A DNA stretch of 64,000 nt from Candidatus Woesearchaeota archaeon. GTDB taxonomy: Archaea; Nanobdellota; Nanobdellia; Pacearchaeales; GW2011-AR1. The translations under genes were made by a program, and so were the position numbers. The notes under the pieces are model-generated. The model saw nothing but the letters and a program-made list of their open reading frames with translations. It was not told the origin of the DNA and ran no database searches. The stretch lies in NCBI GenBank assembly GCA_964612895.1, contig CAZTFL010000001.1, positions 265,043-329,042 on the forward strand, in the 5' to 3' direction. Below, in pieces: positions 6,305 through 32,544 of this stretch (position 1 is its first letter; the number at the start of each line of letters is the position of its first letter).

Positions 6305-6428
6305 AATTAATTGTTATTACAACAACCATCATCATATCCATCAGCATAAACTTCTTCTAGTAAATTATCAATTTCTTCATCAGTTTTAGATTTCTTTAAA
6401 CTTTTTCTTTTTTCTTCAATATTATAAT

Positions 6429-7073: not shown

Positions 7074-7328
7074 TAATCAATTCATCAAGTAAAGCATTTA
7101 TTTCTCTTAAATTATAAATAATCTGATCAAATAAATCTTCAAAATTATTTTCTTCCATAATTAATCAATATAAAAAAGAATATATAATAAATCGGAAACA
7201 AAAAGTGGATAATTTTTTGGATAAAAAAAGTCTCCGATTTCATTTATAAGGATATAATCTCATCACATCATGACAAAAAAATGTTATGTTTGTGGAGATT
7301 TTATTATTGAAGGAGAAATCTGTACTAC

Positions 7329-9860: not shown

Positions 9861-9861
9861 A

Positions 9862-12771: not shown

Positions 12772-12817
12772 CTTAGTCACTCTATATAATAAACTATTAT
12801 TATCATGGTGACGATTA

Positions 12818-13285: not shown

Positions 13286-13286
13286 T

Positions 13287-14225: not shown

Positions 14226-14359
14226 TTTTCTTATATATTAGTAGATTTTGCACTTTTTAAAATTTATTTGTATTTTTGAACAAGATTTTATTACAAGAGT
14301 TTTAATAAAAAGATGAATTAACTATTATATCCTAAGGGAAAAAGTGGTTAAAACTAAAA

Positions 14360-14617
14360 ATGCAAAGACCACTAATACCACGAACAAGAATAGATAGTGA
14401 AGGAAAAATATATTACTCTGAGAGCTTTCAAGCATGGAATACATTAAAATTAAAGAAAGAGTTATTTTCTGAATTTCCCCAATTAAAAGAAAAGAGATCT
14501 AAATTCTCATATAAATTAAATTATTTCAGAAAAATTGAAGAATTACAACTACAACTAAAAGAAATTATTAAAGAAAATGGGATTCCTTTATTACTCTGGT
14601 TTTATAAAGATGAATAA
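14360..14617 (+). CDS. Hypothetical small protein
   Basis: 85-aa ORF in an intergenic gap with no recognisable motifs. Confidence 0.25.
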   Translation: MQRPLIPRTRIDSEGKIYYSESFQAWNTLKLKKELFSEFPQLKEKRSKFSYKLNYFRKIEELQLQLKEIIKENGIPLLLWFYKDE

Positions 14618-14619
14618 AA

Positions 14620-15522: not shown

Positions 15523-15966
15523 TTATTTTTCTTCCTCCTTTTTTGGAAAAAATTTCTCAGGTAACATTCTTACTTGTTTAAACATTTTTGACGAATTAAT
15601 GTCTTCATAAAAATGATGTATATACCCTATTAAATTTCTATCAAAGTCAGAGAAATTATTAAGGTAGTATTCAAAAGCTGTATCAGTATCTCCTAATGTA
15701 ACAGAGAACTGTTTTCTTAGATTGAAATAACTATTAAAGATTAAATCTAAAAAACTAAAAAAGAGGTTATCTTTTATTTGTGTTGATATTTCAGTATCCA
15801 TCTTAGATTGATTAATAGTTTCGTTTGCATTACAAAAGAAATTTATAAGTGTGGAAGTAATTATTCTCTTCTTAGTATCATCTTCTTTAGAAAAATCAAT
15901 CTCAAACTTATTCTCTCCATAAATTATTTCTTCTTTGATTAAACTCTCATAACTTTCATTTACCAA
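15523..15966 (-). CDS. Hypothetical protein. The stop abuts the downstream metallopeptidase gene.
   Basis: 147 aa with no motif recognised. There is zero intergenic distance to 14620-15522, which implies co-transcription. Confidence 0.35.
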   Translation of the reverse strand: MVNESYESLIKEEIIYGENKFEIDFSKEDDTKKRIITSTLINFFCNANETINQSKMDTEISTQIKDNLFFSFLDLIFNSYFNLRKQFSVTLGDTDTAFEYYLNNFSDFDRNLIGYIHHFYEDINSSKMFKQVRMLPEKFFPKKEEEK

Positions 15967-16076
15967 TCCTATTTACTCCTTCAATATAAGCTCTTTTTTT
16001 ATCTCTAAGAGGATCATTCTCTTCAATCTTTTTAATTTGAGTAATTTCTTTCTTTTTCATAGAATTTGTATGGAGA

Positions 16077-17906: not shown

Positions 17907-18368
17907 TTAAATTACCTGAGAAAACTCTTCCCCCCATTTAGTTAAATTACTATTGATAAATTTAGATATTTTTATATCATTTTCTTTTCCAAAATAATCG
18001 CATATCCATTTAGCTGTTTCATCAATATTCCTCGAATAATCGCTTTCAAAATAACTAAGGAAATTCAAAGTATCTTTATTTTTAGAATAGTAAACACCAT
18101 TTGTTTTATATTTAACAGAAATTACTCCTTTTGAAAGGAGTGTCTGGATAGCTTCTTTGTAATTTTCTCTGAGAACAATTATTTCACAAGATCTATTAGG
18201 CAAATCAGGATGTAAACTACTTGGACCTCCAGAAATATCTGAAGAATGAAGCATTAAATAATTGTAATAAAGAATTCTTTGAAGATCTAAATCTTTATTG
18301 GAATGTTTTAGTAAAAATAGAAGCCTGATAGCTAATTCTACCCTTCCATTAAAAATTACTTCTTCCAT
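17907..18368 (-). CDS. Small middle component (LmuC / ABC-3C MC-like)
   Basis: 153-aa ORF sandwiched between the effector and the ATPase. It overlaps the effector by 13 nt and abuts the ATPase. The gene order matches three-component Lamassu/ABC-3C systems. Confidence 0.4.
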   Translation of the reverse strand: MEEVIFNGRVELAIRLLFLLKHSNKDLDLQRILYYNYLMLHSSDISGGPSSLHPDLPNRSCEIIVLRENYKEAIQTLLSKGVISVKYKTNGVYYSKNKDTLNFLSYFESDYSRNIDETAKWICDYFGKENDIKISKFINSNLTKWGEEFSQVI

Positions 18369-19423
18369 TTTATCTCCAATTTTTCATTAGCTAAATGATG
18401 ACAAATTCCCTTTTTATCAGAATTAGAAGCTTGACTAGAAACCAGGGTCGGTCTTATTTGAACAAGAGAAGAATGACTTAAAACCTTTTTTAATCTTTCA
18501 AATCCATTTTGGCAATCTTCTCTAATTTTTTCTAACACTCCTTCATAGATATCGTTTTTTAATGAGTTAAACTGCTCCATCTCCGGATCTATATCTCTTG
18601 AGAACTGTTCAAGAGATTCTGCTTCATAAAAATAAGCTCTTTGTTCCTCAAAATCTTTTTTTAAATCGCTGTTTTTATCCAGTTCTGAGGAAGAAAAAGC
18701 ATCTTTTCCAAGATAATCTGCATAAGCATCAAGTATCTTTTTTATATAAACTGCCTCGCTATTCATAATTTCTTCAGGAGGTCTTTTTGATATTGGACGA
18801 GGTTTAGATAATATTCCAAAGTGGTATGAAAAACATGGCGTCTCTTTGTATTGTTCAATAAAGTCCTTTATATCTAAAAGTTTAAACACTGAAAAATCAA
18901 ACGATTCTAAATAACTTTTTAGTTCATCTGTCAATGGAATACCTGATGTACTTATAGATTTACAACAAGAATTGTCCCAGTTAGAAATCAACTCTTTTTT
19001 GAGATTTTCTTTTGAGTTCAAAATATCCCATGCATTTGGAGTGACTCCCTTTGGAGAAAATATATAATTTTCTTTTGGAGGCGTTATACTTCCTTGTTTG
19101 CAATAATAACAAATTTTCCCAACTTCAATCAAAATCTCTTTTTTTGATAATTTCTTAGCATATTTCTTACATTGATAATTTATCCAGGTTCCATCATTTT
19201 CATAAACACCAATATCTCGTCCCTTATCTCCTGGACCCCCTATCCTAATCACTTTCACATCTTTATTTTGTTTCTTCTTAAATAAATAAAAAGCCCATTG
19301 TTCAATAATTCGTTCAAACTCTTCGTCACCAACTATCTCTAAAAATTTTATTGGATCCAAAGAGTTTGATCTAAGGATTATTCCGCCTTGAGGCATTACC
19401 GGTTCAACAAGGTCGTTTATCAT
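18356..19423 (-). CDS. Effector with N-terminal Mrr-like PD-(D/E)xK restriction-endonuclease domain (LmuA / ABC-3C effector-like)
   Basis: The segment VIRIGGPGDKGRDIGVYENDGTWINYQCKKY fits a D ... E-x-D ... QCK arrangement typical of Mrr-type REase cores. It is first in a three-gene operon. Confidence 0.5.
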   Translation of the reverse strand: MINDLVEPVMPQGGIILRSNSLDPIKFLEIVGDEEFERIIEQWAFYLFKKKQNKDVKVIRIGGPGDKGRDIGVYENDGTWINYQCKKYAKKLSKKEILIEVGKICYYCKQGSITPPKENYIFSPKGVTPNAWDILNSKENLKKELISNWDNSCCKSISTSGIPLTDELKSYLESFDFSVFKLLDIKDFIEQYKETPCFSYHFGILSKPRPISKRPPEEIMNSEAVYIKKILDAYADYLGKDAFSSSELDKNSDLKKDFEEQRAYFYEAESLEQFSRDIDPEMEQFNSLKNDIYEGVLEKIREDCQNGFERLKKVLSHSSLVQIRPTLVSSQASNSDKKGICHHLANEKLEIKWKK

Positions 19424-19535: not shown

Positions 19536-21023
19536 ATGGTGGAAAAAATAACCCTTTCAGAGATGGAATCATACCTTTGGGGTGCTGCCAATATCTTAAG
19601 GGGACCTGTTGATGCTTCAGATTTTAAGGCCTATATTTTTCCCCTACTTTTTTTTAAGCGTATTTCAGATATTTATGATGAAGAATATGAAGATGCTCTA
19701 GAAGAATCGGGAGGAGATGAAGAATATGCCTCTTTTCCTGAGCAACATGATTATATAATTCCTAGTGGAGCTCATTGGAAGGATGTGAGAGAAAAAACTA
19801 CCAACGTTGGAGAAGCAATTCAATATTCCTTTAGAGAAATTGAGAAGGCAAATCCAGATCAACTTTATGGTATTTTTGGAGATGTTAATTGGACCAATAA
19901 AGAAAGATTGCCTGATGAACTTTTGATTAACTTAGTAGAACATTTTTCAAGCAAAACCTTATCTAAGAAAAATGCAGAGCATGACCTTTTAGGACAAGCA
20001 TATGAATTTTTAATTAAAAAATTTGCAGATTTAACTAACCGAAAAGCAGGTGAGTTCTATACTCCAAGGACAATAGTTCATTTAATGGGTTCAATATTAA
20101 AGCCCAAAGAAACAGATAGTATTTACGATCCTGCATGCGGTTCGGGAGGTATGCTTTTAGAGGCATATCATTATGTTAAGGAAAGAAATGGGGACTTTAG
20201 AACATTAAGGATTTATGGGCAAGAAAAGAATTTGACTACTTCTGCAATAGCTCGGATAAACTTATTTTTACATGGAATGAAGGATTTTCAAATCATTAGA
20301 GGAGATACTTTAAGAAATCCTGCTTTTAGAGAGGGGGATAGACTAGCTCAGTTTGATGTAGTAATCGCTAATCCGCCATTTTCTTTAAAGAATTGGGGAT
20401 ACGAAAATTGGGCACAAGATCCTTTTGGCAGAAATTTTGCAGGAGTTCCGCCAGAGAGCTATGGTGATTTTGCATGGGTTCAGCATATGGTAAAATCAAT
20501 GGCCCATCCAAACGGTAGGATGGCAGTTATTCTTCCGCATGGGGCTTTGTTTAGAAGTGGGGCTGAGGCAAGAATTAGAAAAGAATTGATTGATAATGAT
20601 TTAGTTGAGACAATTATTGGATTAGGACCAAACTTATTTTATGGGACTGGAATAAGTGCATGCATTTTAGTTTTGAAACTAAACAAAGAGAAAAATAAAA
20701 AGAATAAAATTTATTTTATCGATGCTTCTAATCAATATCAAAAAGGCAGAAATCAAAATTATTTTTTAGAAGAACATACAAATAATGTTTTATCATGGTA
20801 TGAATCTTATAAAGATAAAGAAAATATCAGCCGTGTTGTCGATGCTTCAGAAATTGCCGAGAATGATTATAATCTCAACTTACTTAGATATATAAAAAAG
20901 ATAGATGAAGAAGATAGGGTTAGTTTAGAGCAAGTCTATAAATCTCTTTTAGATGAAGAAGATAAATTCAATAAATCACAAAAAGAAATGAGTAAAATTT
21001 TGGAGAAATATAATTTAATATGA
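19536..21023 (+). CDS. hsdM: Type I restriction-modification methyltransferase subunit HsdM (copy 1)
   Basis: The HsdM N-domain reads LWGAANILRG. SAM motif I is DPACGSGGML. Catalytic motif is VVIANPPFSLKNW (NPPF). The protein is 495 aa. Confidence 0.85.
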   Translation: MVEKITLSEMESYLWGAANILRGPVDASDFKAYIFPLLFFKRISDIYDEEYEDALEESGGDEEYASFPEQHDYIIPSGAHWKDVREKTTNVGEAIQYSFREIEKANPDQLYGIFGDVNWTNKERLPDELLINLVEHFSSKTLSKKNAEHDLLGQAYEFLIKKFADLTNRKAGEFYTPRTIVHLMGSILKPKETDSIYDPACGSGGMLLEAYHYVKERNGDFRTLRIYGQEKNLTTSAIARINLFLHGMKDFQIIRGDTLRNPAFREGDRLAQFDVVIANPPFSLKNWGYENWAQDPFGRNFAGVPPESYGDFAWVQHMVKSMAHPNGRMAVILPHGALFRSGAEARIRKELIDNDLVETIIGLGPNLFYGTGISACILVLKLNKEKNKKNKIYFIDASNQYQKGRNQNYFLEEHTNNVLSWYESYKDKENISRVVDASEIAENDYNLNLLRYIKKIDEEDRVSLEQVYKSLLDEEDKFNKSQKEMSKILEKYNLI

Positions 21024-22543
21024 GCAAAGCAAAACAAGAGATAGTCGAAGGAGCAATAAGTCAGCAAGAATTAGAGGGATATCTTTGGGGTGCTGCGAAT
21101 TTACTTAGAGGAGTAATTGATCCAGGAGATTATAAAAGCGTTATTTTTCCATTAATGTTCTTTAAAAGAATATCTGATGTGTATGATGAAGAATATGAAG
21201 ATGCATTGAAAGAGTCCGATGGCGATGAAGATTATGCAAACTATCCCGAACAGCATGAATTCCAAATACCAAAAAACTCTCATTGGAAGGATGTAAGAGA
21301 AGTCAGCAAGGATGTAGGAAAGGCAATTAAAAATGCAATGGACAATATTGAAAAATCTAATCAAGACAAATTAATGGGCATTTTTGGAGATACTAATTGG
21401 ACCAACAAAGACAGATTAAGTGACTCAATTCTTACAAGTTTAATAGAGCACTTTTCAACTTTAAATCTCACAATAAAAAACGTTCCTCAAGATGAATTTG
21501 GAACTGCATATGAATTCTTGATTAAGAAGTTTGCGGATGATAGCGGACATACTGCTGCAGAATTTTATACTAATAGAACAGTTGTTAAGATATTAGCTAT
21601 GATTTTAGATCCAAAGCCAGGCGAATCTATTTACGACCCTACTTGCGGTTCAGGAGGAATGTTGCTTAATTCTGCCTTGTTAGTTAAAGAAAAGGGAGAG
21701 GAATATAGAAACTTAAAATTATATGGGCAGGAAATAAATATGATCACCTCAGGTATTGCGAGGATGAATATGTTTATTCATGGCTTTAATGATTTTCATG
21801 TTGCAAGAGGAGATACATTAAGAGACCCTGCTTTTGTTGAAAATGATCAATTAAAAAAGTTTGATATTGTTATCGCCAATCCGCCTTATTCAATTAGCAA
21901 ATGGAATCAAGAAGCGTGGAAACATGATCCTTGGGGAAGAAATAAATATGGGCTTCCACCAAAAGGCAATGCTGATTATGCTTTCTTTCAGCACATAATT
22001 TGTTCAATGAAAGATAAGACTGGAAGATGCGGTGTTTTATTTCCTCACGGAATTTTAGAAAGGGATGCAGAGCAGGAAATGAGAAAAAGAATTATTGAAG
22101 AAGATTTAATTGATTGTGTTGTTGGACTTGGAAAAGATTTATTCTATAATTCTTCAATGGAGTCTTGTTTAGTCTTTTGTAAAACTAAAAAAGATCCTGC
22201 GAAAAAGGGAAAGATATTATTTATTGATGCAAGAGATGAACTTACTCGAAAACAAACTCAGAGCTTTTTAGAAAAGCACCATATTGATAAAATCTTCAAA
22301 GCATATAAAGAATACAAAGATGTTGAGGGTTTTGCTAAGATTGTAAGCAATGAGGATGTTTTAAGTAACAATGGAAACCTAAACATTAAATTGTATGTTG
22401 AGAATCATCGACACCTTAACATGGATATTATTACAACTCCATTAAAGAAGTTTGTCGATGATTGGAAAAAAAGCTCTAAAGAACTTGAAGAGTCTACTAA
22501 AGAAATGAATAAAGTTTTGAAGGAGGTAATAAATGGAAAATAA
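21020..22543 (+). CDS. hsdM: Type I restriction-modification methyltransferase subunit HsdM (copy 2, paralogue)
   Basis: Same architecture as copy 1. Motifs are LWGAANLLRG, DPTCGSGGML and IVIANPPYSISKW. It overlaps copy 1 by 4 nt. Confidence 0.85.
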   Translation: MSKAKQEIVEGAISQQELEGYLWGAANLLRGVIDPGDYKSVIFPLMFFKRISDVYDEEYEDALKESDGDEDYANYPEQHEFQIPKNSHWKDVREVSKDVGKAIKNAMDNIEKSNQDKLMGIFGDTNWTNKDRLSDSILTSLIEHFSTLNLTIKNVPQDEFGTAYEFLIKKFADDSGHTAAEFYTNRTVVKILAMILDPKPGESIYDPTCGSGGMLLNSALLVKEKGEEYRNLKLYGQEINMITSGIARMNMFIHGFNDFHVARGDTLRDPAFVENDQLKKFDIVIANPPYSISKWNQEAWKHDPWGRNKYGLPPKGNADYAFFQHIICSMKDKTGRCGVLFPHGILERDAEQEMRKRIIEEDLIDCVVGLGKDLFYNSSMESCLVFCKTKKDPAKKGKILFIDARDELTRKQTQSFLEKHHIDKIFKAYKEYKDVEGFAKIVSNEDVLSNNGNLNIKLYVENHRHLNMDIITTPLKKFVDDWKKSSKELEESTKEMNKVLKEVINGK

Positions 22544-23765
22544 AATTCCTAAGGGTTGGGAAAAAATAAAGCTCGGAGATGTTGTTGAGCATGTAAAAGA
22601 TAAAGTTCATAATCGAGAAGAGTGGACCTTTGATAGATATATTGGAGGAGAACATTTTGAGGAGGGAGAGATAAGAATTACTAAATCTGCACCAATTGAA
22701 GGCAATGAAGGAGTAATCGGCTCTGCGTTTCATATGAGATTTAAGCCAGGACAAGTTCTTTATGTTACAAGAAATCCAAGACTTAGAAAAGGAGGCATGG
22801 TTGATTTTGAGGGAGTTTGTTCTAATGTTACATTCACACTCCAAGCTAATGAAGAAAAACTATCTCAAAAGCTTCTGCCATTTATAATTCAAACAGAGAG
22901 CTTCACAAAACATGCATGCAATAGTGCTCATGGTTCTACAAATCCTTTCTTAAATTGGAAAGACATCGCAAGTTATGATTTATTACTCCCGCCATTAAAC
23001 GAACAAAAAAAGATTGCAGAAGTTTTGTGGGCTGTGGAAGAAGCCATAAAAAATAATGAAGGTGTTATTAAAAAATTTGAATTATTTAGACTTAAAACTA
23101 TGAAAGAAGTCTTAACAAAGGGAATTGGAAAACAAAATTATATTGAATCAGAATTGGGATTAATTCCTAAAGGTTGGAATATTAAAAAGATTTCAGATAT
23201 ATGCAATATTAGAAGGGGGGCTTCTCCAAGACCGATAAATGATAAAAGGTTTTTTTCCAATTCTGGACCGGGCTGGATTAGAATAGCAGATGTAACTCCA
23301 GTATATAAATATCTTAAAAAAACTACACAATATTTATCTGAATTAGGTGCATCAAAGAGTGTTCGGGTTATGAAGGGAGATCTAATTATGAGTATATGTG
23401 CAACAATCGGGAAACCAGTTATAATTGATATGGATGCATGCATACATGACGGCTTTGTATTGTTCTCCGGTATAAAAGAAAAAGAAATTTTAATGGAATA
23501 TTTATTTTATGTGTTACTTTTTAAAGAGAAAGAGTTTTTATCAAATAAACAGGTTGGGACGCAAGGGAACCTAAATACTTCTATTGTGGGAAATATAAAA
23601 TTAGGTATTCCTCCAAGCATAGATGAACAAAAAAAGATTGTAGACGTATTGGTAAAAATTGATAATGGACTTTTTAGCTATAAGGAGAATCTTAAGTCTT
23701 TAAAAGCCCTAAGGCAAAAACTTATGAATGAGCTTTTTTTGGGTAAAATAAGATTGGAGAAATAA
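22533..23765 (+). CDS. hsdS: Type I R-M specificity subunit HsdS
   Basis: 410 aa with two target-recognition-domain halves separated by conserved helical spacers. It overlaps the hsdM2 stop and abuts hsdR. Confidence 0.8.
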   Translation: MENKIPKGWEKIKLGDVVEHVKDKVHNREEWTFDRYIGGEHFEEGEIRITKSAPIEGNEGVIGSAFHMRFKPGQVLYVTRNPRLRKGGMVDFEGVCSNVTFTLQANEEKLSQKLLPFIIQTESFTKHACNSAHGSTNPFLNWKDIASYDLLLPPLNEQKKIAEVLWAVEEAIKNNEGVIKKFELFRLKTMKEVLTKGIGKQNYIESELGLIPKGWNIKKISDICNIRRGASPRPINDKRFFSNSGPGWIRIADVTPVYKYLKKTTQYLSELGASKSVRVMKGDLIMSICATIGKPVIIDMDACIHDGFVLFSGIKEKEILMEYLFYVLLFKEKEFLSNKQVGTQGNLNTSIVGNIKLGIPPSIDEQKKIVDVLVKIDNGLFSYKENLKSLKALRQKLMNELFLGKIRLEK

Positions 23766-23766
23766 A

Positions 23767-26655
23767 ATGTTTAATGAACAAAACACCGTTGAAGATTATG
23801 TAAGAGACCTTTTAGTTAAACACGGTTGGACTTTCGTTCCAAAAGAAAAACTTCCTCGTCAAGAAACAGATGTCTTAGTTGAGAAACAAGTTAGAGATGC
23901 CCTTATTAGATTAAATCCTTCAATTGAAGAAGATCATGATAGAGCGGATGAAGTTTTGTATAAATTAAAAGCCATATTGGTGTCTGCAAGAGGGACAGGG
24001 GTTGTTAAGACTAATGAAGAGTTTACTCGATGGATTAGAAATGAAAAAACCATGCCTTTTGGAGAAAATGGCGAGCACGTATCTATAAAATTAATTGATT
24101 TTGATGACTTAAAAAATAATGAATTTATTGTTACAACACAATATACTTTTATTTCTGGACAGAATAGAAGAGCAGATTTAGTTCTTTTAGTAAATGGAAT
24201 ACCTTTAGTAATCGGAGAATGTAAAACCCCTGTTAGACCTGCAATTTCATGGGTTGATGGGGCGATTCAACTCGAAGAATATCAAAATTCCTTACCTACA
24301 TTATTTGTCCCTAATTTATTCTGCTTTGCTACAGATGGTAAAGAATACAGAGTTGGTTCAATTAAACTACCAATTGAAAAATGGCAACCTTGGAAAAAAA
24401 CAACAGATACGGTTTTTGAGAAATTAACCGAATTAAAAAATTCTGTTGATTTAATGTTAAAACCTGAGATTGTTCTTGATTTATTATTAAACTTTACTTT
24501 ATTTAGCACAGATAAAACTGGACAAAGTATTAAAGTTCTTTGCCGATACCAGCAATATGAAGCTACAAAACAACTTATACAAAGAGTTATTGATGGCAAA
24601 GTTAGAAAAGGATTAATTTGGCATTTTCAAGGTTCAGGAAAATCCTTATTAATGGTTTATGCTGCACAACTTTTAAGAAAAGAACCCAAACTAAAAAGCC
24701 CGACAGTTATTGTTGTCGTAGATAGAATCGATTTAAATTCTCAAATAAGCGGAACATTTAGTGCTTCACAAGTTCCAAATATAGTAGTTGCTGAATCTCG
24801 TGAAGAATTAAAAAAATTATTAAAACAAGATACTAGAAAAATAATTATAACAACAATTCATAAATTTGCAGAGGCTAATGGGATTTTAAACGATCGAGAG
24901 AATATAATTGTTTTAGTTGATGAGGCACATAGAACTCAGGAGGGGGATTTGGGTAAAAATATGAGAGATTCTTTACCAAATGCATTTTTATTTGGATTAA
25001 CAGGAACTCCAATTAATAAGAGGGACAGAAATACTTTCTGGGCTTTTGGAGCTGAGCAAGATAAAAATGGTTATATGAATCGATACTCATTTGAGCAATC
25101 TTTAACAGATAAGGCAACACTTCCGATTTATTTTGAACCTCGACCCGTTGAATTAAGAATTGATAAAAAGGCAATTGATGATGCCTTCGATGAAATAACT
25201 GATGCCCTTTCAGATAATGATAAAGCAGAACTATCTAAACGTGCTGCGAAAATGGGGGCTTTAATTAAATCTAAAGATAGAATTAAGGAAGTTTGTAAAA
25301 ATATGGTAGAACATTACAAAGAATATATTGAGCCTAATAATTTCAAAGGACAAATTGTTGTTTTTGATAGGGATGCGTGTGATTTGTATAAAAAAGAAAT
25401 TGACAAATTATTATCTCCAGAAGAAACTGCAGTAGTTATGACTGTTAATACAAAAGAAACTGAATGGAAAAAGAAATATTTCTTAAGCGACGATGATATG
25501 GAAAAATTGCTTAATAGGTTTAGAGATCCAAAAGATCCTCTTAAATTACTCATCGTTACATCAAAGCTTCTTACTGGTTTTGATGCTCCTATAAATCAAG
25601 TTATGTATTTAGACAAACCAATGAAGGACCACACATTATTGCAAGCAATCTGTAGAGTTAATCGACCATATAATGGAAAAAATAATGGTTTAATTGTAGA
25701 CTATTTAGGAATTTTTGATAATGTTTCTAAATCATTAAATTTTGATATAAAAGATGTTCAAAAAGTAATTTCCAATATTAGTAATCTAAGAGATGAAGTC
25801 CCTAATGCTATAAAAAAATGTTTATCCCATTTTAAGAAAATAGATAGATCTATTGATGGATACGAGGGTCTTTTACTCGCACAGGATTGTTTACCTACAA
25901 ATGAAAAGAAAGATGAATTCGCTGCAGATTATTCTTATTTGAATCGACATTGGGAAGCAGTATCTCCTGATAAGTTCTTGGATAACTATCAGAAAGATTA
26001 CAAATGGTTAACTCAAATTTACGAATCTTTACAGCCTCCAAGTGGAAATGGTCGATTAATCTGGCATACTTTAGGAGCAAAGACAATCGAGCTCATCAAT
26101 AAAAATGTAACTGTTCAAACAATTAGAGATGATTTAGAGCCATTAATCATGGATTCAAGTGTTCTTGGAAGAATTAATGAAAAAGATGCAAGAATAAAAG
26201 CAAAAGAACTTGAGATGCGTATTGTCTGGAATTTACATAAACATGCAGGCGATCCTAGATTTAAGGAGCTTGGTAAGAGATTGGAAGAGTTGAAAGAAAA
26301 ACATTATAAGAATGTAATTAATAGTTTAACCTTCTTAAAAGAACTTTTAGAAATTGCTAAGGAAACCGTTAAGCTTGAAAGAGAAACAGAGGCAGAACCG
26401 ATCGACAGCTCAAGAGAAGCATTAAGTAAACTCTTTTTAGAATGCAAAGTTGAAACTACTCCAAAAATTATAGAAAAAATAGTAGAAGAAATTGATGGGG
26501 TCGTAAAGGTTACGAGATTTGATGGGTGGCAATGGACATTATCTGGAGAAAAAGAAATAAAGATGGCTTTAAGAAGAACCCTTTTGAAATATAAACTTCA
26601 CAAAGAACAAGATTTGTTTGATAAAGCATATGATTACATAAGGGAGCATTATTAA
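23767..26655 (+). CDS. hsdR: Type I R-M restriction subunit HsdR (SF2 helicase/nuclease)
   Basis: Motif I is IWHFQGSGKSLL. The DEAH box is VLVDEAHRTQEG. The N-terminal Res-III-type nuclease region carries DLVLLVNGIPLVIGECK. The protein is 962 aa. Confidence 0.85.
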   Translation: MFNEQNTVEDYVRDLLVKHGWTFVPKEKLPRQETDVLVEKQVRDALIRLNPSIEEDHDRADEVLYKLKAILVSARGTGVVKTNEEFTRWIRNEKTMPFGENGEHVSIKLIDFDDLKNNEFIVTTQYTFISGQNRRADLVLLVNGIPLVIGECKTPVRPAISWVDGAIQLEEYQNSLPTLFVPNLFCFATDGKEYRVGSIKLPIEKWQPWKKTTDTVFEKLTELKNSVDLMLKPEIVLDLLLNFTLFSTDKTGQSIKVLCRYQQYEATKQLIQRVIDGKVRKGLIWHFQGSGKSLLMVYAAQLLRKEPKLKSPTVIVVVDRIDLNSQISGTFSASQVPNIVVAESREELKKLLKQDTRKIIITTIHKFAEANGILNDRENIIVLVDEAHRTQEGDLGKNMRDSLPNAFLFGLTGTPINKRDRNTFWAFGAEQDKNGYMNRYSFEQSLTDKATLPIYFEPRPVELRIDKKAIDDAFDEITDALSDNDKAELSKRAAKMGALIKSKDRIKEVCKNMVEHYKEYIEPNNFKGQIVVFDRDACDLYKKEIDKLLSPEETAVVMTVNTKETEWKKKYFLSDDDMEKLLNRFRDPKDPLKLLIVTSKLLTGFDAPINQVMYLDKPMKDHTLLQAICRVNRPYNGKNNGLIVDYLGIFDNVSKSLNFDIKDVQKVISNISNLRDEVPNAIKKCLSHFKKIDRSIDGYEGLLLAQDCLPTNEKKDEFAADYSYLNRHWEAVSPDKFLDNYQKDYKWLTQIYESLQPPSGNGRLIWHTLGAKTIELINKNVTVQTIRDDLEPLIMDSSVLGRINEKDARIKAKELEMRIVWNLHKHAGDPRFKELGKRLEELKEKHYKNVINSLTFLKELLEIAKETVKLERETEAEPIDSSREALSKLFLECKVETTPKIIEKIVEEIDGVVKVTRFDGWQWTLSGEKEIKMALRRTLLKYKLHKEQDLFDKAYDYIREHY

Positions 26656-26700: not shown

Positions 26701-27759
26701 TTAATCTATTTTATTTAATTCTTTAATAAAAGAAATTAATATATCATATGCTTCTAAAAACTTATTATAATCCTTTCTTTCATACAACATTTCTGAAGGA
26801 ATATTCCCAGAATCTTGTCTTGAAGAGAAATCTTTATTATGCATAACAGTATTTCTAAAATAAATAATCTTTTGTATCCCTTTTTTTAATTCTTTTTTTG
26901 AAGTATATTGTAAAGATATTGCCTTTTCACTCAGTGAATAATATAGTAAATCTCTTAATTCTATATGTTGAAATGGAGGTAGTTTTTGTTCATAGATATT
27001 TTTTTCTAATTTTTCTAATTTTTCTTTATTTGAACTTTCACGATTTTTTAAAAATAGTAATATATCCTTATCCTCTTTTTTTATTAGAATTAATTTCTCT
27101 CTTAATAATCTTTCAAATACATTTAAAATAGAATAAAAATAAATATATGCCGTTGAGCTAATTAAATCACAAAAGTGTATCACTCCTACTAACTTTTTAT
27201 TATCTAATACGAATAACAAATCTCGCTTTTTTGTTTTGTCTATTAGTTCTGATAAATTAGATTTAGCTGAGATTGTATCCTCTTTTTTAAACTTTTTTTT
27301 AGTGAATCTTTTTGTTTGTTTATTAAAAAACATATAATATTTAGTAGAATTTTTTATTGGTACTTTCTCTATATCTCTTCTCAAACAAAATTCTTTTGAT
27401 TCTTCTTTGTTCTTAAAAAAGAATAACTCTTTGACCATTAATTCTTCTACAAGAATCATAGATCTTATTTGAGATAATATTTTATCTTTTCCTCCTTCAG
27501 CATAAAATTTAACTCTTACACCACCATTAATCTTCTTTGTTCCAAATTTTTGTATATCATTTTTAATAATTTGGTAATATTTTACTTTATTCTTAAAATC
27601 TTTAGAATATCTTGAACCAATCCATGCACAATAACCAACATTTAAACCAAAAGCTTCTCCAAGTTCCTCAAGACCTTTTCTTTTAGCATCTTCTTCATTT
27701 ATATTTTTTAAAATAACAGTTTTGTCTATAAATTTAATTTTAATATCTTCCGGATTCAT
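26701..27759 (-). CDS. Abi-like abortive-infection protein with C-terminal HEPN motif
   Basis: C-terminal KIIYFRNTVMHNK fits the HEPN R-x4-H signature. The architecture resembles the Abi_2/AbiD-F family. It sits between the Type I R-M system and other nuclease genes. Confidence 0.45.
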   Translation of the reverse strand: MNPEDIKIKFIDKTVILKNINEEDAKRKGLEELGEAFGLNVGYCAWIGSRYSKDFKNKVKYYQIIKNDIQKFGTKKINGGVRVKFYAEGGKDKILSQIRSMILVEELMVKELFFFKNKEESKEFCLRRDIEKVPIKNSTKYYMFFNKQTKRFTKKKFKKEDTISAKSNLSELIDKTKKRDLLFVLDNKKLVGVIHFCDLISSTAYIYFYSILNVFERLLREKLILIKKEDKDILLFLKNRESSNKEKLEKLEKNIYEQKLPPFQHIELRDLLYYSLSEKAISLQYTSKKELKKGIQKIIYFRNTVMHNKDFSSRQDSGNIPSEMLYERKDYNKFLEAYDILISFIKELNKID

Positions 27760-27819
27760 AATAATAAAACTAATCTTATCTTTAAATAATTTTTTCTATA
27801 CATTTCTTTTTTTAATCTC

Positions 27820-28338
27820 TTACTTTATTCTTTTTTCCCATTTTTCCCTTTCAAGATCTTCCAATTTTATTCCTTTTTCTTTAGCTTTTTTTCTCATAAG
27901 TTCAATATACTCTAAATAATGAGAAAGATACCCGAAAAAGGGGTAATCTTCTGAATTTATTGTATCTTTTGGTATATCGTTTTGTTTAAAACATTTCTTT
28001 TTTCTTAGTTCATTTATAGTGATTACATCAAAAGGTACATATCTTTCTGGAAATTTTATTGTAAGTATAAATGAAGCAATAGATATGGTAACTCCATTAA
28101 TATTACATAATTCTTTTATTGCATCTTCTGTTTTATCTCTTTTTGCTAATTTAAAAGCCTTTCTTGTTATTTCTTTAATCTTTTCTTCAGAGTCTAAAAA
28201 GTTTTTTTTAGGTTTAAAGTTTTTAAGTTTTAAGAGATCAGAACTAGACCATTCTTTTTTATTCCTTATTTGCTTCGCTATTTCTTCAAATTTTTTTCTT
28301 GCATTATCCATTTTTTCTTTGTTAGTTACTTTTACCAT
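27820..28338 (-). CDS. Hypothetical protein, co-operonic with the DUF2779-like gene
   Basis: 172 aa with no motifs. It overlaps the upstream gene's stop by 17 nt. Confidence 0.35.
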   Translation of the reverse strand: MVKVTNKEKMDNARKKFEEIAKQIRNKKEWSSSDLLKLKNFKPKKNFLDSEEKIKEITRKAFKLAKRDKTEDAIKELCNINGVTISIASFILTIKFPERYVPFDVITINELRKKKCFKQNDIPKDTINSEDYPFFGYLSHYLEYIELMRKKAKEKGIKLEDLEREKWEKRIK

Positions 28339-29821
28339 TTAAAACCTCCCACAATCCTTCAACAATCTTAACTTCTGCTAATGTGTCTAATTCACAATAT
28401 TTTTCTAAGGCATTTCTCATTTCTTGTTTTTCTTTAGGATTAATGTCATTAAAAGTAATTCTTTCCCATTGATATGATGCTTCATCTCCTTTTTTTATAT
28501 GCTCTAAATTTTTATAACTTAAATCAGAAATTACTGGAAGAACATATTTGATAGAGCAAGAGCCTTTTTGCTCGGGATCATAATAATAGAAATTCCTGAA
28601 AACATCCCATAAATCTTTGATTCTTGGCAGGATATTCTCCTCGTACCATTCTCTAAATTCTGGAAAAGCAATTGCTGATTCATTCAGAACTCCCTTTTCA
28701 AATCCTTGATTATACACAAGTATACTTCCTTTATCTCCTAAATTCTCTTTTAATGATTGCATAAATTTAAGTCTTGGATCATTTGTTCCATCAGCTAAAA
28801 AAGAAATATGTTTTAATTCAGCATTTTTACTTTCTTGAATATGTAAACTAAATTGAAAAGGTATCCTTTGATAAGGTTTCATTCCATCAAATTTAGGTAA
28901 AATAGGGTTTATTGTCTCAAAGTCTAAATAATAAATAGGATATTGTAAATTTTTCAAGAAGTTATCAATTTCTAATTTATTGATATGAATTCCATTATCA
29001 TAAACTAATCTTTTTTGAATTTCTTGTTTATCATTTAACTTAAAACTTTCAGGAACATCTTTCATAGTAATATAACCTTTTTTGTATAATTCTACTGCTT
29101 TTTTCTTTAATATTCTATAAAACTCAAAAATATTATCTTTAGGTAAAGAACTCATAAATTCATCAAGACATAAATTATCATATTCTATTGTTAAAACATC
29201 ATCAACAGAGAATTCTGGTTCAGGTCCTTTAATAATATTAAACATTTTATCTATGTTCTTTTCTAATTCTTCTTCAAAAGGTTTTATTTTATCAGTTATA
29301 TTTGTTTGAACAAATAATTCAGAAGGTTCAATTTGCCCATCTTTTATATATTCATTATTAATATGCATTAAAAAACACTTTCTTATTTTCAAACCTGCTT
29401 TTTCATAAACATATTTTTGAAAAGCAACATCATGTAAATTAATATCTTTTACTTTTGTAGCAGATTTTACTTCAATAATATCCCATTCATCTTTTCCTAC
29501 AGGATTAAGAATATCTGCTCTTGAATATATAATTCCTTCTTTTAATATTGCTTGAATCCCAAATTCAAATAAAGGACGTCTCATTTCTAAAGCATTAATC
29601 CCAAGTCTTAGATTTTCTTGATAATCTTCTCCAGGAATTTTAATTCCTCCTTCAAATAAAGTAGTTGCTAATTCTCCTACTAAAGTTCCATCATCAAACT
29701 TCTTTTGTTCAATTTCATTAGGTTCAGGGATTCTCTCTTTATCGTTTTTAGTAATCCACAAGAATTTAGGACATTGTATTCCTAAAAGATAGTTTGATTT
29801 TGTTAAAATTATAGGTTTCAT
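28322..29821 (-). CDS. DUF2779-like protein (predicted RecB-like PD-(D/E)xK nuclease superfamily), tentative
   Basis: The N-terminal LTKSNYLLGIQCPKFLWI resembles the conserved N-terminal signature I recall for DUF2779 proteins. 499 aa. This is a from-memory family assignment. Confidence 0.4.
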   Translation of the reverse strand: MKPIILTKSNYLLGIQCPKFLWITKNDKERIPEPNEIEQKKFDDGTLVGELATTLFEGGIKIPGEDYQENLRLGINALEMRRPLFEFGIQAILKEGIIYSRADILNPVGKDEWDIIEVKSATKVKDINLHDVAFQKYVYEKAGLKIRKCFLMHINNEYIKDGQIEPSELFVQTNITDKIKPFEEELEKNIDKMFNIIKGPEPEFSVDDVLTIEYDNLCLDEFMSSLPKDNIFEFYRILKKKAVELYKKGYITMKDVPESFKLNDKQEIQKRLVYDNGIHINKLEIDNFLKNLQYPIYYLDFETINPILPKFDGMKPYQRIPFQFSLHIQESKNAELKHISFLADGTNDPRLKFMQSLKENLGDKGSILVYNQGFEKGVLNESAIAFPEFREWYEENILPRIKDLWDVFRNFYYYDPEQKGSCSIKYVLPVISDLSYKNLEHIKKGDEASYQWERITFNDINPKEKQEMRNALEKYCELDTLAEVKIVEGLWEVLNGKSN

Positions 29822-29909
29822 TATAAAATAATTAGAAAAAGGAGATTTTTATGGTTTTGGATTAAAAGAAACTTATTTAAATTATTTAATTCCTTAAAGT
29901 TTAATAAGT

Positions 29910-30683
29910 ATGATAAAAATAAATGAAGATGTTCAAGAGATTAGGGAAGAATTAACTTCAGTTTATAAAAAATTTTTTAGAGATTTAAAGATTGATCCTA
30001 TTTCAGGCCTTACAGAGGATGGAAGAGGGAATAAACGTTTTGCAACATATGCTTATGTAGGTTCAAAATATGGTAGTAAAAAAAAGATTTTGTTTATTGG
30101 TTTAGATATTGGTAAGGATGAACCCCTAAATGGAGATACAACAAAAATAAAAGAAGATTATAGATACGGGATACAATATTTTGAAAAAAGAAGGAAAAAG
30201 ATTGAAAGGGTAACAAAAGAAGGCAAAGATTCTAAAAAAGAAGGTCATAATGCTCATATTTCTGGAACAATGATTCATGCAGGAGAGATATTGGAATTAA
30301 ATCCTAAAGAAGAATCATTTAAAGAAAAAGATTATTCTAAGGGTTATATTAAAGATCCAAGAATAATAAAACATTTTGAGAAAAATAATCCTTTATCTTA
30401 TGTAGCTCTTATAAATCTCCGTAAATTTGTAGATAAAGAGAAGCAAGATAGAGAACAGGGTAAATATGTATATCCAGAAAAGGAAAAAGAATTATTATAT
30501 AAAGAAGTTGAAAGACTAAACCCTGACTTAATAATATTACAAGGCATCAATTTTAAAAATCAAAAAGAAACTTTAAAAGAATTAAAAAAAACTAATGTAA
30601 AGGTTCGTTGTGGGTATCATCCAGCTTATCGTAATAAAAAAAGAACATTAAGTAACTTATTGAAGACATATAAAATGTTATAG
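29910..30683 (+). CDS. Hypothetical protein
   Basis: 257-aa Lys/Glu-rich ORF with no recognisable motif. Confidence 0.4.
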   Translation: MIKINEDVQEIREELTSVYKKFFRDLKIDPISGLTEDGRGNKRFATYAYVGSKYGSKKKILFIGLDIGKDEPLNGDTTKIKEDYRYGIQYFEKRRKKIERVTKEGKDSKKEGHNAHISGTMIHAGEILELNPKEESFKEKDYSKGYIKDPRIIKHFEKNNPLSYVALINLRKFVDKEKQDREQGKYVYPEKEKELLYKEVERLNPDLIILQGINFKNQKETLKELKKTNVKVRCGYHPAYRNKKRTLSNLLKTYKML

Positions 30684-30695
30684 ATCTCTTAGTTT

Positions 30696-31283
30696 TTAGA
30701 TTAAATTATTTATTTTTGATAACTTATCATATATTTTTTCTTCTTCATTTATTGCTTTTTTTATTAGATATTTTAATTCTTTTTCTTTGTATTTACTATT
30801 ATTCTTTAAAATTTCTAATGCTAAATGTAAATTACTATCTAAATCACTCAAATTATTAAAAAGAGAATTCTTATTTAACATTTTAATCCCTTCTTTTATT
30901 TCCTTTGTTGCCTTTGGTCCTGGTACTATTTTAGAGGTGGTGTAATAAATATTATTTTTTCTATCAATCCACTCTTTTTTATATGCTGTTTTAAATAACT
31001 CAGAAGGGTTTACTTTTTGATTAATAGGATTTACTTTTTTTAAATAACCTTTTTTAACATAAAATATAATACCTGATTGGATTAAAATCTTAAAAATCTC
31101 TTTTATTTCATCTGAAGTTAATTTTATATCTAAATATTTGAGTTCTTTATTTATTCTTTTTATTAAGTCCTTTTCTGAGATATAATTCTCAAGAGAATTT
31201 TCATATTTGTTTATACATTCAACAACAAGAGATATTATTTTTATCTGTTCTAATGAGGGTTTAGTTTTCTTCTTGGATTCCAT
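30696..31283 (-). CDS. Hypothetical protein (possible helical/wHTH regulator)
   Basis: 195-aa ORF with no catalytic motif. It is the last gene before tRNA-Asp. Confidence 0.35.
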   Translation of the reverse strand: MESKKKTKPSLEQIKIISLVVECINKYENSLENYISEKDLIKRINKELKYLDIKLTSDEIKEIFKILIQSGIIFYVKKGYLKKVNPINQKVNPSELFKTAYKKEWIDRKNNIYYTTSKIVPGPKATKEIKEGIKMLNKNSLFNNLSDLDSNLHLALEILKNNSKYKEKELKYLIKKAINEEEKIYDKLSKINNLI

Positions 31284-31592
31284 AAATAAATAATCAATTT
31301 AAACTTTAAATAAATTTAGAAATTAAAAAGTATATTCTTTTATGAGTATTAAAACCTATAATGTTATTACAATGTAACCACCAAATTAAATATATTAATT
31401 GTCTTTTAATCTCTAAAAATAATATTTTCTACTTTTTAACTTTTATTCAAAAAGTGGGATAAATTTTATAAAAGTACAAAAAAGGAAAAGATATCTTAAG
31501 TGATATTCAAATAAATGATGAATCTAAAATAGAATTCTTTTTAATTAAACAATAAATAAAAATACGCCCATAAAACCCACAAAAGTCCCTAA

Positions 31593-31664
31593 CGCCCAAA
31601 CCGGGAATTGGACCCGGGTCTCGAGCGCGACAGGCTCACGTACTAGCCACTATACTATTTGGGC
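31593..31664 (-). tRNA. tRNA-Asp (anticodon GTC). CCA is not encoded.
   Basis: Hand-folded from the minus strand. Acceptor GCCCAAA pairs with TTTGGGC. D-stem GTAT pairs with GTAC. Anticodon stem TGAGC pairs with GCTCG, with loop CTGTCGC. T-stem CCGGG pairs with CCCGG, with loop TCCAATT. Discriminator is G. Total 72 nt. Confidence 0.85.
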
Positions 31665-31815
31665 ATTTCTTGACTGAAGTTTACTCCCAAATTACTTAAT
31701 CAAGATAATTTTTATTGGTTTTTGACCTTTTTAAGATTTATGTTCACTACTTTTTTTAAGTAATTTTTAATTTCTTTTTTATTATCTAAATTCTTTTAAA
31801 TAATTCGAAATATTA

Positions 31816-32544
31816 ATGTATATGCCAACTGAAGAATTTAACAATGGATTTATTTTATACGTTGGAGCTATGTTCGGTGGAAAAACAGCGCAGGCAATAA
31901 TGGATGCTCAAAGAGCCGTTGTAGCAAATAAAAAAGTTTGTGTATTTAAAACAAGTTGGGATAATCGCTATTCTGATACATATTTAACAGCAAATAATGA
32001 ACAATTAAAATTTCCTTCTATATCAGTACCTCATTTAGATGATTTAATTAGAGAGACTAAAAAAAAGAATCCAGAAATTTTAATTATAGATGAAATACAA
32101 TTTTTTGATGAAAGAATTTATGATTATATATTAAATAATAAAAAAAATATGAGAATTATTGCTACTGGTTTACAAATGGACTATAGAGGAAATTCTTTTC
32201 CATTAAGAGATCCTAGAGGAAAAGAATATGATTCCGAAAAAATAAAAATTGGAACACTTATGGGAATTAGTACAAAAGTAAAACAATTCTGGCCAATTTG
32301 TGTTGAAAACACGAAAGAAAGCCCTTGTGATTCTGCATATTACAACCAAAGAATAAATGAAGACGGGAATTTATCTAAATATTCTGAACAAACTGTTGTA
32401 ATTGGTGCAACAAATAAATATAGAGCTGTTTGTGATAAACATTTTATAAGACCAATATCCAACGATAAATTTTTGACTCCTAATGGAGAAATTATTAATT
32501 ATGAGAATACAAGAGATTATATAGAAATTCTAAAAAATAAATAA
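31816..32544 (+). CDS. tdk: Thymidine kinase
   Basis: P-loop YVGAMFGGKTAQ. Walker B-like IIDEIQFFD. C-terminal Cys cluster (C...C...C..H) is typical of the TK zinc ribbon. Confidence 0.7.
   Translation: MYMPTEEFNNGFILYVGAMFGGKTAQAIMDAQRAVVANKKVCVFKTSWDNRYSDTYLTANNEQLKFPSISVPHLDDLIRETKKKNPEILIIDEIQFFDERIYDYILNNKKNMRIIATGLQMDYRGNSFPLRDPRGKEYDSEKIKIGTLMGISTKVKQFWPICVENTKESPCDSAYYNQRINEDGNLSKYSEQTVVIGATNKYRAVCDKHFIRPISNDKFLTPNGEIINYENTRDYIEILKNK

What the first reader, a model, noticed from the sequence alone, without database searches (positions are those of the whole stretch)
27820..29821. Overlapping two-gene module (DUF2779-like putative nuclease plus a 172-aa unknown) embedded in the defence island. 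Candidate uncharacterised defence system.
A 499-aa protein begins LTKSNYLLGIQCPKFLWI, which resembles the DUF2779 N-terminal signature of the predicted RecB-like nuclease superfamily. It is followed, with a 17-nt overlap, by a 172-aa Lys/Glu-rich protein with no recognisable domain. The pair is flanked by an Abi/HEPN gene on one side and two more unknown genes (29910-30683 and 30696-31283) on the other, all between a Type I R-M system and the tRNA-Asp attachment end. Guilt by association makes this a good candidate for a novel anti-phage or anti-plasmid module.
Basis: inference. Interest (0 to 1): 0.6.

Follow-up and report, generated by a model that had tools for sequence, protein, structure and literature searches.

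The report
Split base-sensor plus dual-nuclease restriction module
Two overlapping genes in a tiny archaeon's defence island encode a double nuclease and a small protein shaped like a DNA-repair glycosylase; the pairing recurs in unrelated microbes next to restriction systems, so it is probably an untested two-part enzyme that detects and destroys foreign DNA carrying unusual bases.

Summary
In detail: 499-aa and 172-aa ORFs on the minus strand overlap by 17 nt. Both active sites are intact. The 172-aa protein is not domain-less: profile and fold searches place it in the HhH-GPD glycosylase superfamily, closest to archaeal Ogg2, with the catalytic Asp kept and the Lys lost ('OGL'). Loci retrieved with OGL carry DUF2779 in 11 of 40 cases, in three gene arrangements and at least six DUF2779 clades. 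DUF2779 genes sit beside GmrSD, type I or type II restriction genes in half of 34 sampled loci, with density decaying with distance. Between two near-identical strains only OGL plus the nuclease C-terminus has been swapped for a divergent allele. The closest known system is the END nucleases (nuclease fused to an inactivated EndoIII/Ogg sensor of hypermodified phage DNA); this would be a split, two-gene version with a different nuclease, in DPANN archaea. No experiment supports it yet. New variant of a known kind; interest 0.6.

The parts
28322..29821 (-). 499-aa DUF2779 protein, a two-nuclease fusion. The N-terminal Cas4-like PD-(D/E)xK domain covers about residues 1-230 (nt ~29821-29132). 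The C-terminal DEDDy 3'-5' exonuclease, which is the Pfam DUF2779 domain, covers about residues 290-499 (nt ~28954-28325).
27820..28338 (-). 172-aa OGL protein: a small Ogg2-like HhH-GPD-fold protein. HhH motif G82-L92; conserved Asp104; the Ogg2 catalytic Lys position is Ser86 here and Pro in most of the family.
28322..28338 (-). 17-nt overlap between the stop of the nuclease gene and the start of OGL, suggesting translational coupling.
   Evidence: The same 17-nt overlap appears in the divergent allele of L001 (gene calls 2043-3542 and 3526-4017). Overlaps or gaps of 1 nt or less occur in window, L001/L044, L030, L052, L056, L057 and L078.
27770..28570 (-). Divergent allelic cassette covering the last ~80 codons of the nuclease gene plus all of OGL. 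It has been replaced relative to a near-identical strain (L001/L044).
   Evidence: Nucleotide identity is 92-100% on both sides and 55-81% inside. Amino-acid identity: DUF2779 residues 1-410 95%, residues 411-499 76%, OGL 49%, downstream 352-aa protein 96%. dS is 0.15, 1.42, 0.67 and 0.07 respectively. dN/dS is highest in OGL at 0.48.
26701..27759 (-). 352-aa protein with a C-terminal R-x4-H (HEPN-like) motif, 60 nt downstream on the same strand. It is probably in the same transcript but is not a conserved partner.
   Evidence: 96% identical in L001 and present in L044. It is found with the pair only in these same-lineage loci (cluster c22). No significant family hit.
19536..26655 (+). Type I restriction-modification system (hsdM, second hsdM, hsdS, hsdR), convergent with the three-gene block. 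This is a recurrent companion of both DUF2779 and OGL in other genomes.
   Evidence: Pfam N6_Mtase+HsdM_N twice, Methylase_S, HSDR_N+SWI2_SNF2+ResIII. HsdR/HsdS/HsdM homologues lie near DUF2779 in L006-8, L010, L011, L019, L021 and L023, and near OGL in L054, L062, L072 and L082.

Best explanation
The two overlapping genes form a two-component, modification-sensing restriction module, in effect a split version of an END nuclease. OGL, a minimal Ogg2-like HhH-GPD protein, scans DNA, flips out non-canonical bases of invading DNA and recognises them. It may also excise them, because it keeps the catalytic Asp of monofunctional glycosylases while lacking the AP-lyase Lys. The DUF2779 partner then destroys the marked DNA: its Cas4-like PD-(D/E)xK domain cuts or resects 5' strands and its DEDDy domain resects 3' ends. 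The C-terminal helices of the nuclease are the likely docking surface for OGL, because they are exchanged together with OGL between strains. The module sits beside a type I R-M system as the complementary arm: the R-M system attacks unmodified foreign DNA, and this module attacks DNA that escapes by base modification. In other genomes the same nuclease is instead paired with GmrSD, another modified-DNA sensor. Shown here: the folds, the intact catalytic residues, recurrent adjacency in several gene orders, restriction-gene enrichment, and the allele swap. Inferred: physical interaction, modified-base specificity, glycosylase activity or inactivity, and the anti-virus phenotype.
For: (1) Domains. 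The nuclease is Cas4-like plus DEDDy with all catalytic residues invariant. OGL has the HhH-GPD/Ogg2 fold. (2) Linkage. Of 40 loci retrieved with OGL alone, 11 carry DUF2779 within about 1 kb, and 5 of the 13 loci with at least 1 kb on both sides do so. The binomial P is 2e-13 assuming a 1% chance rate, or 2e-8 at 3%. Among loci retrieved with DUF2779, L030 and L036 also carry OGL. Three arrangements occur: nuclease first, OGL first, and divergent with one gene between. Seven pairs overlap or abut. Linked pairs fall in at least six separate clades of the DUF2779 tree. (3) OGL's other partners are of the same kind: stand-alone PDDEXK_1 nucleases plus HsdR in L054, L072, L062 and L063, and in L062 OGL is fused to an N6 DNA methyltransferase in place of HsdM_N. 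(4) Defence context of DUF2779. 17 of 34 loci have an R-M or GmrSD gene within 2.5 kb, and in 10 it is directly adjacent. The fraction of R-M-like genes falls from 16% to 10.7%, 4.2% and 1.7% over successive 2.5-kb bins (Fisher near versus far P=8e-5). GmrSD_N and ResIII are the commonest neighbour families. On plasmids it sits next to Qat and a dGTPase. (5) Distribution is patchy, with 40-50% identity between DPANN archaea, Chloroflexota, Patescibacteria, Scalindua and Bacteroidota, two paralogues flanking an integrase, and 29 plasmids. (6) The allelic cassette swap is confined to OGL plus the nuclease C-terminus in otherwise 92-100% identical strains, as expected for a specificity or sensor subunit in an arms race. 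(7) Precedent: END nucleases use an inactivated EndoIII/Ogg (PF21790-like) domain fused to PLD, NucS-like PD-DExK or McrB modules to restrict hypermodified phages, and phage inhibitors bind the sensor (PMC12191111).
Confidence: 0.45

Rival explanations
1. Base-excision restriction. OGL is an active monofunctional DNA glycosylase that excises a modified or unprotected base from invading DNA, like Brig1 or the PabI restriction glycosylases. The resulting abasic sites are the damage, and DUF2779 is an optional processing nuclease that converts them into gaps and breaks. This differs from the best explanation only in whether OGL is catalytic and can act alone.
For: The catalytic Asp (D104) is retained in over 90% of the family. 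The Lys position is Ser or Pro, as in monofunctional HhH-GPD enzymes such as MutY, which has Ser at the equivalent position (from my own knowledge). Many OGL genes stand alone without an adjacent nuclease. That makes sense for an autonomous enzyme but not for a pure sensor. Defence glycosylases are established (Hossain et al. 2024, cited; PMC13160076; PMC10273834).
Against: The conserved Asp also has a structural helix-capping role in HhH-GPD folds (established knowledge), so its retention does not prove catalysis. No activity data exist. The closest experimentally studied defence proteins with this fold, the END nucleases, use it as an inactive sensor.
Confidence: 0.2
2. Housekeeping DNA repair module. 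OGL removes damaged bases from the cell's own DNA and DUF2779 trims the resulting ends. Proximity to restriction genes reflects general clustering of DNA-metabolism genes, or repair of self-inflicted restriction damage.
For: Closest structural relatives are repair glycosylases. The DEDDy domain resembles the repair exonuclease MrfB. The DUF2779 homologue is quasi-essential in JCVI-syn3.0 and was hit in a Mycoplasma bovis fitness screen. DUF2779 is highly conserved. Some OGL genes lie beside RecJ, MetRS or GidA.
Against: A repair enzyme would not be expected to exist as 49%-identical alleles in strains whose flanks are 95-100% identical. The patchy cross-domain distribution, presence on plasmids, duplicate copies around an integrase, and steep distance-decay of restriction genes around DUF2779 are signatures of accessory or defence genes. 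The AP-lyase Lys of Ogg2 is lost.
Confidence: 0.17
3. DUF2779 is a general accessory of restriction systems, acting as a RecBCD-like clean-up or nucleotide-salvage nuclease that degrades DNA already cut by type I, type II or GmrSD enzymes. OGL is an unrelated island passenger with no functional tie to it.
For: DUF2779 is adjacent to many different restriction types and usually has no OGL. DPANN archaea depend on nucleotide salvage (established knowledge), and thymidine kinase (window) and dCMP deaminase (L005) lie nearby.
Against: This does not explain the tight overlaps, the three conserved arrangements in at least six clades, the 11/40 co-occurrence, or the co-replacement of OGL with the nuclease C-terminus.
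Confidence: 0.12

Closest known systems
END nucleases (END-PaCF1, END-Mag; Yee et al., bioRxiv 2025, PMC12191111)
   Same: A nuclease is combined with an EndoIII/Ogg-like HhH domain (HHpred to PF21790, the same Pfam family that 16/30 OGL members weakly match). They lie in defence islands. END-Mag combines a PD-DExK nuclease with a domain most similar to archaeal Ogg. The sensor is the part targeted by phage inhibitors, which matches the hypervariable OGL allele seen here.
   Different: END nucleases are single polypeptides; here the sensor and nuclease are separate, overlapping genes. The nuclease is a Cas4-like plus DEDDy double nuclease (DUF2779), not PLD, NucS-like or McrB. OGL keeps the catalytic Asp, whereas END sensors lack the catalytic residues. 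The hosts are DPANN archaea and various uncultured bacteria. No phenotype has been tested. Direct sequence comparison with END proteins was not possible because no sequences were available.
Archaeal/bacterial Ogg2 8-oxoguanine DNA glycosylase/AP lyase (PDB 3n0u, 3knt, 3fhg, 9o02)
   Same: Best sequence-profile and fold match. The HhH motif, the following Asp and the C-terminal helices align.
   Different: OGL is shorter (about 155-190 aa against about 207) and lacks the catalytic Lys (Ser or Pro instead). It scores below Pfam cutoffs, is genomically linked to nucleases and R-M systems, and shows allelic hypervariability.
Cas4 / DEDDh prespacer-trimming nucleases of CRISPR adaptation
   Different: Cas1 and Cas2 do not appear among the 25 commonest neighbour families across 32 loci. 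The window protein lacks three of the four Fe-S cysteines. The two domains are fused in one chain.
GmrSD-family type IV (modification-dependent) restriction enzymes
   Same: They occupy the same genomic niche. GmrSD is the most frequent direct neighbour of DUF2779 (L002, L006/L011, L009, L019, L031, L033), which suggests that OGL and GmrSD are alternative modified-DNA sensors used with the same nuclease.
   Different: GmrSD has its own HNH-type (DUF1524) nuclease and a ParB-like NTPase domain. It has no homology to OGL.
Defence DNA glycosylases (Brig1; PabI-family restriction glycosylases)
   Same: The concept is immunity through recognition or excision of a base rather than phosphodiester cleavage (PMC10273834; Hossain 2024 as cited).
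   Different: The folds differ: PabI has the HALFPIPE fold, and Brig1 is reported as structurally unlike EndoIII/OGG1. They act as single proteins.
MMSYN1_0389 / UU173-family DUF2779 proteins of Mollicutes
   Same: Same Cas4-like plus DEDDy architecture and the same conserved residues. There is a weak NCBIfam UU173 hit (36.6 bits against a cutoff of 225).
   Different: The Mollicute proteins are about 650 aa, quasi-essential, and not reported with OGL or R-M partners. The window protein is far below the UU173 family cutoff.

Membership tests
DUF2779 (Pfam PF11074) | Score above the Pfam gathering threshold | tested here: met
   137.5 bits against a cutoff of 23.3, E=3.7e-40, residues 297-423, full profile 1-126.
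DEDD(y) 3'-5' exonucleases (RNase H-like clade F) | Exo I (DxE), Exo II and Exo III (Y-x3-D) acidic residues on an RNase H-like fold | tested here: met
Cas4 / RecB-like PD-(D/E)xK nucleases | D...(D/E)xK...QxxxY catalytic motif on the restriction-endonuclease fold | tested here: met
Cas4 / RecB-like PD-(D/E)xK nucleases | Four-cysteine Fe-S cluster (one N-terminal Cys plus a C-terminal triad) | tested here: not met
   The window protein has C17, but the triad region reads VLTIEYDNLCLDEFM with a single Cys. Most homologues have C..PY.CP...CW.
Cas4 (as a CRISPR-associated protein) | Encoded with cas1/cas2 or next to a CRISPR array | tested here: not met
   Cas1 and Cas2 are not among the 25 commonest families of the 96 immediate neighbours from 32 loci. 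The gene maps of L001-L009 show no cas genes. CRISPR arrays were not searched for explicitly.
HhH-GPD DNA glycosylase superfamily (Ogg2 branch) | HhH motif followed by a Gly/Pro-rich loop and a conserved Asp, on the two-lobed helical fold | tested here: met
HhH-GPD DNA glycosylase superfamily (Ogg2 branch) | Catalytic Lys in the HhH (bifunctional glycosylase/AP lyase) | tested here: not met
   Ogg2 G-L-G-M-K-E-A-S aligns with family G-V-x-I-P-x-A-S; the window protein has Ser86 at this position.
Pfam OGG (PF21790) / Ogg-HhH (PF22175) / DUF6308 (PF19827) | Score above the curated gathering threshold | tested here: not met
   The window protein has no hit. 16, 7 and 13 of 30 family members hit only at E between 3e-5 and 1e-3 or weaker; for example PF21790 scored 18.8 bits against a cutoff of 27.
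END nucleases | Nuclease domain and EndoIII/Ogg-like sensor in one polypeptide | tested here: not met
   They are two separate ORFs with a 17-nt overlap. No fused DUF2779-OGL protein was seen in any locus or search.
END nucleases | Sensor domain lacks the glycosylase catalytic residues | tested here: inconclusive
   The Lys is absent but the Asp is retained in over 90% of the family.
END nucleases | Restricts phages with hypermodified DNA | not testable with these tools
   Needs phage challenge experiments.
Known defence systems in PADLOC-DB v2.0.0 | Significant match to a system component model | tested here: not met
   There are only weak Cas4 hits (E~0.01) for the 499-aa protein and none for OGL.

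The most novel reading that the evidence does not exclude
OGL is a catalytically active HhH-GPD restriction glycosylase whose exchangeable alleles set which foreign base is excised, and the DUF2779 double nuclease docks on it to turn abasic sites into lethal breaks. That would be a new class of two-component base-excision restriction system. It would also give the first biological role to the widespread DUF2779 family, including its quasi-essential homologue in the minimal cell, and it would imply that viruses of DPANN archaea commonly carry modified DNA.
Probability: 0.2. Interest if true: 0.8.

Novelty: new variant of a known kind. Interest (0 to 1): 0.6.

Why it matters
DUF2779 is a large family: more than 4,000 clusters at 90% identity were found in this one search. 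It occurs in bacteria and archaea, has no known role, and one member is quasi-essential in JCVI-syn3.0. Showing that it is an effector nuclease recruited by modified-DNA sensors (OGL or GmrSD) would give it a function. It would also extend the END-nuclease principle, in which a repurposed repair-glycosylase fold acts as a sensor of foreign bases, from fused bacterial enzymes to split systems, to a new nuclease chemistry and to DPANN archaea, whose immunity and viruses are almost unstudied. The swappable OGL alleles could provide a set of modified-base readers of practical use for detecting DNA modifications.

Tried and rejected
(1) The sigma-70 promoter and terminator scan of 26.5-30.1 kb was uninformative: 25 sites found against 23.4 expected, in an AT-rich archaeal sequence.
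(2) The att-site search with the tRNA-Asp 3' end found only the tRNA itself, and the direct repeats in 12-32 kb look like low-complexity chance matches.
(4) The search for related loci with the broad OGL alignment A2 failed for lack of a conserved stretch; the narrower alignment A3 worked. The viral contig scan found nothing.
(5) The word-indexed search with the OGL profile returned only 11 proteins and no fusions.
(6) I considered whether OGL is just an HsdM_N-like domain and rejected it (hhalign probability 0.7%).
(7) I considered whether the stand-alone PDDEXK_1 nucleases beside OGL are specifically related to the DUF2779 N-domain; this was not demonstrated (hhalign probability 1-2%).
(8) There are no phage-encoded homologues of either protein and no viral structural match for OGL. 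There is only one modest PHROG hit (phrog_24538, E=2e-6).
(9) The AFDB fold library was unavailable and the END paper's supplements are not held, so no direct OGL-versus-END comparison was possible.
(10) Single-linkage clustering merged OGL with HsdM through the L062 fusion. OGL counts were therefore taken from the HMM search.
(11) PDB sequence searches for the 257-aa and 352-aa neighbours gave nothing useful.

Full report
OBSERVATION. A 499-aa ORF lies at 28322-29821 and a 172-aa ORF at 27820-28338, both on the minus strand, overlapping by 17 nt. A 352-aa ORF follows 60 nt downstream on the same strand. The block is convergent with a type I R-M operon made up of two HsdM paralogues, HsdS and HsdR. 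Beyond that operon lies an ABC-3C conflict system. tRNA-Asp is at 31592-31665. The window has about 25% G+C, and the R-M segment is richer at 0.30-0.34. The best homologues are from Pacearchaeota and Nanoarchaeota, so the host is a DPANN archaeon. I found no second copy of the tRNA 3' end, so the 'attachment end' claim is unsupported.

IS THE PAIR REAL? I ran two reciprocal tests. Starting from DUF2779, 34 loci came from species-representative genomes and 9 from exact-protein look-ups. OGL is adjacent in L001, L030 (OGL upstream, 4-nt overlap) and L036. Starting from OGL, 40 metagenome loci were retrieved. DUF2779 lies within about 1 kb in 11 of them, and in 5 of the 13 that have at least 1 kb on both sides. 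At an assumed chance rate of 1% the binomial P is 2e-13. Three arrangements occur, and seven pairs overlap or abut. On a neighbour-joining tree of DUF2779 the OGL-linked genes fall in at least six clades, interleaved with GmrSD-linked and R-M-linked ones. When DUF2779 is absent, OGL is often beside a stand-alone PDDEXK_1 nuclease and HsdR (L054, L072, L063). In L062 it is fused to an N6 methyltransferase in place of HsdM_N. OGL itself is unrelated to HsdM_N. Other OGL genes sit next to an integrase, RecJ, MetRS, GidA or a kinase, so the partnership is facultative.

DEFENCE ASSOCIATION. Gene maps of homologues show DUF2779 next to several kinds of restriction gene. These are GmrSD; Dcm, Dam and HNH genes; PLD-helicase plus Eco57I/MmeI-type methylases; and HsdM/HsdS. 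One locus has two DUF2779 paralogues around an integrase. Among 96 immediate neighbours from 32 loci, the commonest Pfam families are ResIII and GmrSD_N (6 each), followed by helicase domains and DNA methyltransferases. PADLOC hits are HEC-05/06, type I-III MTases and REases, and SspE-like proteins. In 34 non-redundant loci, 17 have an R-M or GmrSD homologue within 2.5 kb and 10 have one directly adjacent. The share of such genes falls from 16% to 10.7%, 4.2% and 1.7% in successive 2.5-kb bins (Fisher P=8e-5). The family is patchy, with 40-50% identity between DPANN archaea and Chloroflexota, Patescibacteria, Scalindua, Verrucomicrobia and Bacteroidota. It is present on 29 plasmids, for example directly after a Qat system and near a dGTPase, and absent from phages.

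AN ALLELIC CASSETTE. L001 and L044 come from a near-identical strain. DNA identity to the window is 92-100% on both sides but 55-81% across window positions ~28570-27770, which cover the last ~80 codons of the nuclease gene plus all of OGL. Amino-acid identity is 95% for nuclease residues 1-410, 76% for residues 411-499, 49% for OGL, and 96% for the downstream protein. dS is also raised in the cassette (1.42 and 0.67 against 0.07-0.15 in the flanks), so a divergent allele was imported by recombination. dN/dS is highest in OGL at 0.48. The 17-nt overlap is preserved in both alleles. Co-replacement of OGL with the nuclease's C-terminal helices suggests that the two parts contact each other (inference).

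MECHANISM. The closest characterised precedent is the END nucleases (PMC12191111). In these, PLD, NucS-like PD-DExK or McrB modules are fused to an inactivated EndoIII/Ogg (PF21790-like) domain that senses hypermodified phage DNA, and phage inhibitors appear to bind that sensor. I propose that OGL plus DUF2779 is a split version. OGL reads, and perhaps excises, non-canonical bases, and the Cas4-like/DEDDy nuclease degrades the marked DNA. The module complements the neighbouring type I R-M system, much as type IV enzymes accompany type I systems in the E. coli immigration control region (established knowledge). The frequent alternative pairing of DUF2779 with GmrSD fits the view that it is an effector used with interchangeable modified-DNA sensors. 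The rivals are an autonomous restriction glycosylase, a housekeeping repair module, and a restriction clean-up nuclease with OGL as a passenger. Each is weighed in the structured fields.

NOVELTY. The nuclease architecture is known, and so is the sensor-plus-nuclease logic. Four things appear to be new, as far as the searched literature shows and given the absence of PADLOC hits. They are the assignment of the small protein to the Ogg2-like fold; its recurrent operonic link to DUF2779; the strong restriction-island association of DUF2779; and the allele-swap cassette. Everything functional is inference and no experiment exists. Verdict: a new variant of a known kind, of moderate-to-high interest (0.6).

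Noticed in passing
window 15523-19423 (-): An ABC-3C (ABC three-component) conflict system lies just beyond the type I R-M operon. It comprises MC2 (PF20288, 17907-18368), a CTD6-bearing protein (PF20282, 18356-19423) and a 609-aa protein with no Pfam hit that matches phrog_1637.
   Followed up: partly
window 19536-22543 (+): The type I R-M system carries two tandem, full-length HsdM paralogues (495 and 507 aa, 4-nt overlap) ahead of one HsdS and one HsdR. The R-M segment has higher G+C (0.30-0.34) than its surroundings (0.22-0.27), suggesting horizontal acquisition.
   Followed up: no
window 29910-30683 (+) and window ~29871-29885: The 257-aa protein divergent from the nuclease gene has only a weak uracil-DNA-glycosylase-superfamily hit (E=0.009). 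Homology between the window and L001/L042 stops just upstream of the nuclease start codon, so this side of the block is strain-variable.
   Followed up: partly
L062 5968-7491: A 507-aa protein in which a complete OGL domain (residues 2-143, hhalign probability 99.9%) replaces the HsdM_N domain of a type I methyltransferase. It lies directly after HsdR and before a PDDEXK_1 nuclease. It is a single occurrence, and assembly artefact has not been excluded.
   Followed up: partly
L006/L007/L008/L011 (e.g. L006 3352-4836 and 8001-9479): Two DUF2779 paralogues flank a ~3-kb segment carrying a tyrosine integrase and an HNH gene. One is coupled to GmrSD_N plus HsdM/S and the other to Eco57I-type and Dcm methylases.
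   Followed up: no
L002/L003/L004 (e.g. L002 2130-3950): A protein-primed family B DNA polymerase (PF03175) lies about 4 kb upstream of the GmrSD-DUF2779-methylase cluster. This may be a pipolin-like element carrying defence cargo in a Pacearchaeote (compare PMC11551731).
   Followed up: no
L068 5398-6468: An OGL gene is in frame behind a truncated RuBisCO large-subunit N-terminus (RuBisCO_large_N plus the first 74 residues of the catalytic domain). This is either an insertion into a RuBisCO gene or an ORF-calling artefact.
   Followed up: no
L088 (Aliarcobacter cryaerophilus plasmid pACRY43158, record 4783-16713): The DUF2779 gene is wedged between a Qat anti-phage system (QatC, TatD-family QatD) and an AAA protein plus a dGTPase. 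The defence-island association therefore extends to bacterial plasmids.
   Followed up: partly
window 31816-32544 (+); L005 3834-4256: Nucleotide-salvage genes lie close to DUF2779 genes: thymidine kinase in the window and dCMP deaminase in L005. This may be coincidence, or a hint of a link between DNA degradation and salvage in DPANN archaea.
   Followed up: no
window 27820-28338 (-), residues 72-167: OGL has a modest hit to phrog_24538 (unknown function, E=2.2e-6). However, tblastn against 50,697 phage genomes, the IMG/VR pattern scan and the BFVD fold search found nothing.
   Followed up: partly
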